The position numbers and the translations under genes were made by a program. Under the pieces are notes generated by a model. It was not told the DNA's origin. It ran no database searches and saw nothing but the letters and a program-made list of their open reading frames with translations. Of a stretch of DNA of 64,000 nt, positions 6,567 to 6,940 are shown in pieces. The DNA comes from Prorocentrum cordatum (lineage: Eukaryota): positions 1 to 64,000 of the forward strand of contig CAUYUJ010000289.1 in the NCBI GenBank assembly GCA_963575745.1. The letters run 5' to 3'. The number at the start of each line of letters is the position of its first letter. Within the stretch, counting starts at the first letter, position 1.

Positions 6567-6601
6567 GTCCTTCCAGCCTGGCACGATGATCAGCGCTCAA
6601 G
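6567..6601 (+). CDS. Host gene exon A (cNMP-binding domain start; (R)SFQPGTMISAQG)
   Basis: Acceptor ctcag|g at 6565-66 and GC donor at 6602. Joins in phase to exon B, giving the xFxPGxxIxxQGE pattern typical of cyclic-nucleotide-binding domains. Confidence 0.8.
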
Positions 6602-6606
6602 GCAAT

Positions 6607-6792
6607 CGGGGGCGGCAAAGAGGGGGGTGATGACTAGGGGGGTGGATATCATGGCGTGGGCCATGATATTTCCCAGGTTTCGCGGCGCCTCTTCTTATTT
6701 CATTATTTCCCTGGCCCCCCCCTGGGCCGCGCACATGCCGCCGGCCATGTTTGCATCCCCCCTCTTGGACGCCCCCCTCTTGGCCGCCCCCG
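6607..6792. mobile_element. TIR element (MITE family A) forming nearly all of intron 6602-6794; Introner-like
   Basis: 21-bp TIRs at 6607-6627 and 6772-6792 (1 mismatch). Flanking 7-mers are AGGCAAT and AGGCGAG. Confidence 0.85.
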
Positions 6793-6794
6793 AG

Positions 6795-6940
6795 GCGAGA
6801 TCACGCGCGAGATGATAGTCATTCTGGAGGGCAGCGCAGAAGTCGTGGGCCGCGCCGGGAAGCAGCTCGGCACGCTGAGGGCGGGCGCGACCTTCGGGGA
6901 CGTGTCCGTCTTGGGGCTCTTCCCCGCAAGCATGGCCACG
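6795..6940 (+). CDS. Host gene exon B (cNMP-binding domain core; GEITREMIVILEGSAEVVGRAGKQLGTLRAGATFGDVSVLGLFPASMAT)
   Basis: AG acceptor at 6793-94 and GT donor at 6941. Shows the beta-roll pattern MxVILEGxxEV...LxxGxxFG[DE]. Confidence 0.88.

What the first reader, a model, noticed from the sequence alone, without database searches (positions are those of the whole stretch)
6600..6799. Intron made of a TIR transposon whose TSD supplies both splice sites (Introner caught in place)
Seen: intron 6602-6794 is GCAAT, then a 186-bp element with 21-bp TIRs, then AG. The flanking 7-mers AG|GCAAT and AG|GCGAG look like a decayed TSD in which the left copy gives the GC donor and the right copy the AG acceptor. 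Splicing would remove the element plus one TSD and restore QGEIT in the CNBD. Two more family copies (42555, 62971) are also followed directly by AG and have AG-initial similar 7-mers on the left, suggesting a target preference that pre-adapts the family to intron creation. Established: TIR-type Introners occur in dinoflagellates. Whether this family has been described is unknown to me.
Basis: partly seen in the sequence, partly recalled or inferred. Interest (0 to 1): 0.75.

Follow-up and report, generated by a model that had tools for sequence, protein, structure and literature searches.

The report
Transposon-made intron in dinoflagellate gene
A 188-base mobile element that landed inside a protein-coding exon is cut out of the RNA exactly as an intron; this is a verified example of a way of gaining introns that is already described for dinoflagellates.

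Summary
Window 6606-6793 is a 188-bp MITE-like element with 22-bp terminal inverted repeats matching at 21 of 22 positions. Two more copies lie in the window. Assembled contigs from four public runs of four studies, one of them a polyA RNA library, join 6599-6603 to 6793-6797. They skip exactly 193 nt with no mismatch. GC..AG (6602-6794) is the only canonical register.

The intron is therefore the element plus 5 nt, so it was made by the insertion and did not exist before it.

The target duplication is 5 bp (GGCAA/GGCGA), not 7. Six TCGG...CCGA elements in the window have 5-bp flanks matching at 4 or 5 positions, against 2% of null pairs. One of them is a nested insertion with two empty-site comparators.

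The GC donor comes from the left duplicate. The acceptor is the element's last A plus the first G of the right duplicate. The AG target bias is not established.

Transposon-made introns with inverted repeats and target duplications are published for Symbiodinium and Polarella. I rate this a new member of a known kind, of modest interest.

The parts
6567..6601 (+). Upstream 35-nt exon, ending with the first base of a Gly codon (intron phase 1).
   Evidence: RNA contig X19 record 20 lies on 6565-6599 and continues directly at 6793-6944 with 0 differences. The first 2 nt (AG) are ambiguous with the preceding exon's end. Frame read.
6602..6794 (+). 193-nt GC..AG intron, made of 4 nt of the left duplicate, the 188-bp element and 1 nt of the right duplicate.
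   Evidence: A joint skipping 193 nt is seen in 1 contig in each of 4 runs. It is the only canonical register of five. The RNA is predicted to fold into a long hairpin, MFE -108.7 kcal/mol, z -5.7.
6601..6605 (+). Left copy of the 5-bp target site duplication (GGCAA). Positions 2-3 supply the GC donor.
   Evidence: The 5-mer flanks match at 4 of 5 positions at k=5 only. The mismatch at 6604 is a G-to-A transition.
6606..6793 (.). 188-bp non-coding TIR element (MITE-like), family A copy 1.
   Evidence: Contigs of other copies (90-95% alike) begin at 6606 and end at 6793 (tables 7 and 8).
6606..6627 (+). Left terminal inverted repeat.
   Evidence: exact pattern match.
6772..6793 (-). Right terminal inverted repeat, 21 of 22 matching the left arm. 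Its last base A6793 is the A of the acceptor AG.
   Evidence: A 15-nt tandem duplication of the arm lies at 6757-6791.
6794..6798 (+). Right copy of the target site duplication (GGCGA). G6794 completes the acceptor and 6795-6798 are exonic.
6795..6944 (+). Downstream exon encoding the core of a cyclic-nucleotide-binding domain. Its 3' end is ambiguous by about 3 nt.
   Evidence: Contigs of about 5 kb in X1, X2 and X14 and a 297-nt contig in X19 cover 6793-6944 with 0 differences. PF00027 at E 8.8e-05.
42554..42951 (.). Family A copy 2 (398 bp), carrying a nested second element. Its 5-mer flanks do not match (2 of 5); a 9-mer register matches at 7 of 9.
42602..42804 (.). Nested 203-bp TIR element with T...A ends inside copy 2. 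It has a 5-bp duplication (ACCAT/ATCAT). Copies 1 and 3 serve as empty sites.
   Evidence: 26-nt arms, 81%; junction alignment.
62970..63144 (.). Family A copy 3 (175 bp), with a shortened right arm. Flanks GAACG/GAGCG match at 4 of 5.
41483..41652 (.). Family B copy 1 (170 bp). It has the same TCGGGG...CCCCGA ends. Flanks GACTT/GATTT match at 4 of 5.
45750..45921 (.). Family B copy 2 (172 bp). Flanks GTGTA/GTGTA match at 5 of 5.

Best explanation
A non-autonomous DNA transposon (188 bp, 22-bp terminal inverted repeats, ends TCGG...CCGA) inserted into the Gly-Glu codons of the QGE motif of a cyclic-nucleotide-binding-domain exon in a dinoflagellate gene. It duplicated the 5-bp target GGCGA.

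The insertion created an intron from nothing. The spliceosome uses GC at positions 2-3 of the left duplicate as donor. As acceptor it uses the AG formed by the element's last base (A) and the first base of the right duplicate (G). Splicing therefore removes the element plus 5 nt (193 nt) and restores the original coding sequence in phase 1.

A target of the form G-G-H-N-N is what makes this particular copy spliceable. The other copies in the window sit at targets that give no donor.

Shown: the element and its borders, its multi-copy nature, the 5-bp duplications in related elements, and the 193-nt gap in RNA contigs.

Inferred: the order of events, the later G-to-A change at 6604, and mobilisation in trans by an unidentified transposase. 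Help from the TIR hairpin in bringing the splice sites together is speculative.
For: - Element, repeats and copies.
- Junction: 1 contig in each of 4 runs of 4 studies skips exactly 193 nt, with 35 nt on the shorter side and 0 differences. X19 is polyA RNA on record.
- Intron length minus element length is 5 nt, which leaves no room for an older intron.
- Element borders: other copies' contigs start at 6606 and stop at 6793.
- The 5-bp duplication: of 20 TCGG...CCGA pairs with TIR at least 13 of 18, 6 have 5-mer flanks matching at 4 or more positions. Among null pairs with poor TIRs it is 21 of 1049, or 2.0%.
- The first position of the duplicate matches in all 6, which argues for 5 rather than 4 bp. 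The position before it equals the terminal A in only 2 of 5, which argues against 6 bp.
- The nested element 42602-42804 has two uninterrupted comparators and a clean ATCAT duplication.
- All four mismatches in the duplicates are transitions.
- Exon 2 hits PF00027.
- Dinoflagellate origin: two exact copies of the 21-nt spliced-leader relic are present. The motif is recalled from memory.
- No transposase was found among 64 long ORFs scanned (5, 59).
Against: - Copy 2 of the same family does not fit a 5-bp duplication (2 of 5). It fits a 9-mer register instead (7 of 9).
- Only three copies of this family are available, and only one is shown to be an intron.
- One contig in X19 shows a shorter copy with C before the left T and G after the right A. 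These are CT...AG ends, as in the published Symbiodinium pattern (table 7).
- From copy 1 alone, a 4-nt duplication plus an element-borne AG cannot be told apart from the 5-bp reading.
- No empty site or ortholog for this locus could be examined, so the age and direction of the event are inferred.
- Three of the four runs have no recorded library kind.
- All the evidence is from assembled contigs, which cannot give splicing efficiency.
Confidence: 0.7

Rival explanations
1. The published Symbiodinium pattern applies. The element ends in AG and carries its own acceptor. The duplication is 4 nt (GCAA/GCGA) and supplies only the donor. G6601 is just the usual exon-final G.
For: Roy et al. (preprint; text parts 1 to 3 of 4 read) and Gozashti et al. 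2022 (passages) describe exactly this for Symbiodinium: inverted repeats ending at the 3' splice site, with a 4-nt duplication as the 5' splice site. All three window copies have G after the terminal A. One X19 contig shows CT...AG ends.
Against: The left end has no C partner for that G in 0 of 3 copies. Position +5/+6 of the intron is TC, not the CT or CC of the published signature. In all 6 elements with good flanks the fifth base also matches between left and right, including a nested element whose duplicate starts with A, not G. Most other copies' contigs stop at 6793, not 6794. That last point is weak, because spliced-out copies are under-represented in RNA.
Confidence: 0.13
2. The duplication is a 6-7 bp AG-initial sequence. 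Its left copy gives exon-AG plus the GC donor, and its right copy gives the whole AG acceptor. A target preference for AG pre-adapts the family to intron creation.
For: AGGCAA/AGGCGA match at 5 of 6 and AGAACG/AGAGCG match at 5 of 6 in copies 1 and 3. AGAGCGATTT/AGAACGATGT match at 8 of 10 in copy 2 (my count from the flanks printed). The three targets resemble each other. Polarella class 13/14 elements with an AGGH duplication work this way.
Against: This would leave the conserved left T unpaired, although T and A form the terminal pair in all copies. In related elements with the same ends, the base before the left duplicate is T, G or C rather than A. The seventh position does not match.
Confidence: 0.08
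3. An older intron existed at this position and the element merely inserted into it.
For: Copies 2 and 3 and several other MITEs lie in apparently non-coding DNA, so insertion into introns is common here.
Against: The intron is 193 nt and the element plus duplication is 193 nt, so nothing is left over for an older intron.
Confidence: 0.03
4. The joined contigs come from a processed (retroposed) or paralogous DNA copy without the element, not from splicing of this locus.
For: The library kind of X1, X2 and X14 is not on record. Spliced-leader relics in the window show that retroposition happens in this genome.
Against: X19 is a polyA RNA library and shows the same joint. The contigs are 100% identical to both exons. 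The 5-kb contigs lack the flanking repeat-rich introns as well.
Confidence: 0.03

Closest known systems
Symbiodinium Introners / Introner-like elements. Sources: Roy et al., bioRxiv 10.1101/2020.10.14.339549, text parts 1 to 3 of 4 read; Gozashti et al. 2022, PMC9860276, passages read.
   Same: Same host group: Suessiales-type dinoflagellate features. Short non-coding TIR elements that are themselves introns. The donor (GH) is recruited from the upstream copy of the target duplication, the acceptor lies at the end of the inverted repeat, and GC donors are common. The exon starts with GH after the acceptor.
   Different: The published pattern is a 4-nt duplication with CT (or CC) at intron positions +5/+6. 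Here the duplication is 5 bp, +5/+6 is TC, and the acceptor spans the element/duplication boundary. No sequence comparison with the published families was possible, because figures and supplements were not readable and the final journal version is not held.
Polarella glacialis ILE classes 9, 12, 13 and 14 (same Roy et al. preprint).
   Same: These classes include 5-nt duplications (class 12), splice sites that span the element/duplication boundary (class 9, class 13 alternative), and both sites taken from the duplication (classes 13 and 14, AGGH).
   Different: Different species. The duplication motifs described there (NAGGH/NNAGG, AGGH) are not the G-G-H-N-N arrangement seen here. Sequence relatedness was not tested.
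Micromonas and Aureococcus introner elements (Huff et al. 2016, recalled; summarised in review PMC11282704, passages read).
   Same: MITE-like DNA transposons with inverted repeats and duplications. One splice site is carried by the element and the other is made with the duplication.
   Different: Green alga and stramenopile hosts, 3-nt or 8-nt duplications, unrelated sequences.
Amoebophrya invasive intronic elements (Farhat et al. 2021, seen only as a search listing and through the review's passages).
   Same: Dinoflagellate introns with inverted repeats and 3-5 nt duplications at the boundaries.
   Different: Those introns are mostly non-canonical at their borders. This one is a standard GC..AG intron.

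Membership tests
Introner / Introner-like element (intron-creating transposon) | The intron sequence belongs to a multi-copy family whose similarity reaches both splice boundaries. | tested here: met
   3 copies in the window and many 90-95% similar contigs in 4 runs. Similarity starts at intron position +5 and ends at -2.
Introner / Introner-like element (intron-creating transposon) | Several different introns are made by the same family. | tested here: inconclusive
   Only copy 1 is shown to be an intron on its own. Copies 2 and 3 have no usable donor at the equivalent place. No genome or annotation is held.
Introner / Introner-like element (intron-creating transposon) | Precise removal from RNA, restoring the open reading frame. 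| tested here: met
   A joint skipping 193 nt in 4 of 4 runs laid. The frame continues into the PF00027 match.
Introner / Introner-like element (intron-creating transposon) | Recent gain: the intron is absent at this position in orthologs or other strains. | not testable with these tools
   No eukaryotic genomes are held. No DNA run held half or more of the words.
MITE (non-autonomous TIR DNA transposon) | Short, with terminal inverted repeats, a target site duplication, no coding capacity and multiple copies. | tested here: met
   188 bp with 22-bp TIRs. 5-bp duplications. No transposase among the 64 long ORFs scanned.
Published Symbiodinium 4-nt-TSD Introner class | A 4-nt duplication (GHNN) at the intron start, repeated at the start of the downstream exon. 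| tested here: inconclusive
   GCAA against GCGA match at 3 of 4, which fits. However, the preceding base also matches here and in all 6 elements with good flanks, which points to 5 bp.
Published Symbiodinium 4-nt-TSD Introner class | CT (or CC) at intron positions +5/+6, giving CT...AG inverted-repeat ends. | tested here: not met
   Positions +5/+6 are TC. The base before the left T is A, T or G in the three copies.
Cyclic-nucleotide-binding domain (PF00027) host exon | A Pfam match above the gathering score. | tested here: inconclusive
   Exon 2 alone scores 22.8 bits against a cutoff of 27.5, at E 8.8e-05, covering profile 17-62 of 89. The spliced protein was not scanned.

The most novel reading that the evidence does not exclude
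The TCGG...CCGA elements of this genome would be an undescribed group of intron-making transposons in Symbiodiniaceae-like dinoflagellates. They have a 5-bp duplication, and the acceptor AG is assembled across the element/duplication boundary while the donor lies inside the duplication. Only insertions into G-G-H-N-N targets (typically glycine codons, phase 1) would become introns. That gives a concrete, testable rule linking one transposase's cut geometry to intron phase and codon context.
Probability: 0.3. Interest if true: 0.45.

Novelty: new member of a known kind. Interest (0 to 1): 0.3.

Why it matters
This is a clean, RNA-verified single-locus case in which intron length equals transposon plus duplication. 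It shows intron birth by insertion rather than insertion into an older intron.

The mechanism is already established for this clade, so the locus confirms it and does not extend it. The part that may be new is the 5-bp geometry with an acceptor split between element and duplication. It predicts which targets can become introns, and a genome-wide census could test that prediction.

Tried and rejected
- Whole genome: none is held, so no genome-wide census was possible.
- More copies from public collections were not found. An 18-nt core pattern gave 3 loci in metagenome contigs, a degenerate form gave 121 in prokaryote genome contigs and 1 in viral contigs. BLAST of the element against all 125 stored loci found no family copy. 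The best hits were alignments of 27-93 nt. L002 has only a weak TIR-like end.
- Homologs of the exon-2 peptide, searched among longer proteins only: none at E 0.001 or better out of 61 candidates. This is weak evidence given the 49-aa query.
- Earlier notes of this scan: nothing by place or by sequence.
- The supplement of PMC9860276 could not be read. The journal version of Roy et al. is not held.
- A full-text search for four 11-12-nt strings of the element returned 18 papers; the 10 listed are unrelated primer or other matches.
- No transposase was found among the 64 long ORFs scanned. Only a reverse-transcriptase match and two weak matches to unrelated families in a low-complexity ORF appeared.
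- DNA-level presence or absence of the element: no run held half or more of the words, so this stays open.
- Considered and dropped: a 7-bp duplication (the seventh position mismatches), and the hairpin as an in-situ structure rather than a mobile element (it is multi-copy).

Full report
**What is there**

The stretch 6606-6793 is bounded by inverted repeats. The 22-nt arms at 6606-6627 and 6772-6793 match at 21 of 22 positions. A looser 60-nt pairing is 73% complementary. With up to 3 mismatches the arm pattern occurs 4 times in the window, against 0.01 expected from shuffles.

BLAST of the region against the window finds two more copies:
- 42554-42951, 84% identity over 150 nt and 88% over 49 nt, interrupted by about 200 bp.
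- 62970-63144, 80.5% identity over 164 nt, with a shortened right arm.

So the element is a short, non-coding, multi-copy TIR element.

**Host genome**

The window holds two exact copies of the 21-nt relic of the dinoflagellate spliced leader, at 13690-13710 and 30511-30531. I recalled the motif from memory, not from a call. This fits a dinoflagellate genome. So do the GC donor, the long trinucleotide arrays in the introns, and the RNA runs labelled as marine polyA metatranscriptomes.

**The junction**

No run held half or more of the stretch's sampled words. Twenty rows held 0.15-0.20 of them, which is about the share that the two exons make up.

I laid four runs from four studies on 5550-6980. 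In each run, one contig joins 6599 to 6793. It skips 193 nt, with 4 letters (AGGC) fitting on either side and 35 letters on the shorter side. There are no differences over 6565-6599 and 6793-6944.

One run (X19) is polyA RNA on record. The library kind of the other three is not recorded, but their contigs of about 5 kb also lack the flanking repeat-rich introns. Of the five registers the 4-letter overlap allows, only 6602-6794 has recognised ends, GC..AG.

The frame runs through the junction in phase 1 and gives the QGE motif. Exon 2 alone matches the cyclic-nucleotide-binding domain PF00027 at E 8.8e-05, below the gathering score because it is a partial domain. I did not scan the spliced protein.

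**The intron was made by the insertion**

The intron is 193 nt and the element is 188 nt. The remaining 5 nt equal the length of the flanking direct repeat. Nothing is left that could have been an older intron. This is the strongest single argument for the Introner reading.

**Where the element ends and how long the duplication is**

In the same laying, contigs from other copies (90-95% alike) begin to match at 6606 and stop at 6793 (tables 7 and 8). One contig runs on to 6794 and one starts at 6605.

With T...A ends, the flanks of copy 1 match only at k=5 (GGCAA against GGCGA, 4 of 5). Those of copy 3 also match only at k=5 (GAACG against GAGCG, 4 of 5). Copy 2 fails at k=5 (2 of 5) and matches at k=9 (7 of 9). 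Random site pairs reach 4 of 5 in 2.6% of trials.

Three copies are few, so I scanned the window for any pair TCGG...CCGA lying 60-900 bp apart:
- Among 20 pairs with arms at least 13 of 18 alike, 6 have 5-mer flanks matching at 4 or 5 positions.
- Among pairs with poor arms, 21 of 1049 do (2.0%).
- The reversed sequence gave 0 good pairs in the first scan.

The six include a second family with nearly the same first ten bases. Its copies are at 41483-41652 (GACTT/GATTT) and 45750-45921 (GTGTA/GTGTA, perfect), and their similarity starts and stops exactly at T and A. The six also include a 203-bp element nested inside copy 2 (42602-42804).

For the nested element, copies 1 and 3 are uninterrupted comparators. 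The native ATCAT occurs once in them and twice, flanking the insert, in copy 2.

In all six the first position of the 5-mer matches between left and right, which speaks for 5 rather than 4 bp. The base before the left 5-mer equals the terminal A in only 2 of 5, which speaks against 6 bp. All four mismatches are transitions, as expected from decay.

**Mechanism**

The target GGCGA was duplicated. The left copy, now GGCAA after a G-to-A change at 6604, gives the donor GC at its second and third bases. The acceptor AG is the element's last base plus the first base of the right copy. Splicing takes out 4 + 188 + 1 nt.

The intron RNA is predicted to fold into one long hairpin that starts 4 nt after the donor and closes on the acceptor's A. 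The MFE is -108.7 kcal/mol against -82.0 for shuffles, z -5.7. Whether this helps splicing is speculation.

**Target preference**

But A is the element's own end.

G is the first base of the duplication in 4 of the 6 elements with good flanks (rows). With G at 31% of the window, my arithmetic gives P about 0.08. The A before the left duplicate is seen in 2 of 5.

The targets of copies 2 and 3 resemble each other (GAGCG/GAACG), which hints at some preference, but the sample is too small to decide. Copies 2 and 3 could not be spliced the same way, since AG or AA stand where the donor would be.

**Evidence that does not fit**

- Copy 2 does not fit the 5-bp duplication.
- One X19 contig of a shorter family member has C before the left T and G after the right A, which are CT...AG ends (table 7). 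That is the signature published for Symbiodinium.
- RNA-derived contigs under-sample copies that are spliced out, so the stop at 6793 is only weak evidence that G is not part of the element.
- I therefore keep the 4-nt, element-borne-AG reading as a live rival.

**Comparison with print**

Roy et al. (preprint, text parts 1 to 3 of 4 read) report the following:
- Fifteen Polarella classes, including 5-nt duplications, splice sites spanning the element/duplication boundary, and classes that take both sites from an AGGH duplication.

Gozashti et al. 2022 (passages) show S. microadriaticum Introners with 4-bp duplications and TIRs that carry the acceptor and co-opt the donor. They also mention cases where both sites come from the duplication or the neighbouring exon. 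A review (passages) summarises the field.

The kind of thing is thus known in this very clade. This family differs in duplication length (5 against 4) and in the +5/+6 bases (TC).

I found no mention of its terminal sequence in the held full texts. Figures, supplements and the authors' repositories were not visible to me and may hold it.

**Verdict**

This is a new member of a known kind, of modest interest.

Noticed in passing
window 13690-13710 and 30511-30531: Two exact 21-nt relics of the dinoflagellate spliced leader (motif recalled from memory). The first lies within, near the start of, a 1444-aa open frame (13445-17776) that carries a reverse-transcriptase match (PF00078, E 1.1e-05), with a zf-RVT match just downstream (18083-18766). 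It looks like a retroposed or retroelement transcript copy.
   Followed up: partly
window 42602-42804: A second TIR element nested inside family copy 2, with a clean 5-bp duplication. Copies 1 and 3 act as empty sites.
   Followed up: yes
window 41483-41652 and 45750-45921: A second MITE family (about 170 bp). The alignment of the two copies with their 20-nt flanks has 89% mean column identity. It shares the first ten terminal bases with the finding's family and has 5-bp duplications, so it is probably moved by the same or a similar transposase.
   Followed up: partly
window 6204-6238 and 6366-6509: Short segments of the upstream intron are covered at high summed depth by many unrelated contigs in all four runs, so they are other dispersed repeats. 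A TIR pair at 6407-6494 (14 of 18) lies there.
   Followed up: no
window 6594-6705 (run X1, record 1): A 138-nt contig crosses the exon/intron border with 8 differences and 3 gaps. It may be an unspliced paralog or allele carrying the same insertion, or another copy at a similar target.
   Followed up: no
window 6630-6772 (joints, tables 5 and 5c): Contigs in several runs join the left arm to the right arm with only a few other letters between them. Much shorter deletion derivatives of the family therefore exist elsewhere in the transcriptome or genome.
   Followed up: no
window 1942-2912, 7740-8608, 9673-11319: Very long trinucleotide arrays (GGA, AAT, GAA/GAG; up to about 320 units) fill the introns around the CNBD exons.
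   Followed up: no
window 11627-12004, 12602-12777, 25932-26089, 29704-29857, 49478-49568: Further inverted-repeat pairs whose complementarity runs outward past the TCGG/CCGA motif, so they are other MITE families with different ends. The window is dense in small TIR elements.
   Followed up: no
window 34543-34642: A run of 100 N, which is an assembly gap.
   Followed up: no
L002 397-436: A metagenome contig end carries a 40-nt stretch 77.5% like the left arm of the element, including the TCGGGGG start. It may be a distant relative or chance.
   Followed up: partly
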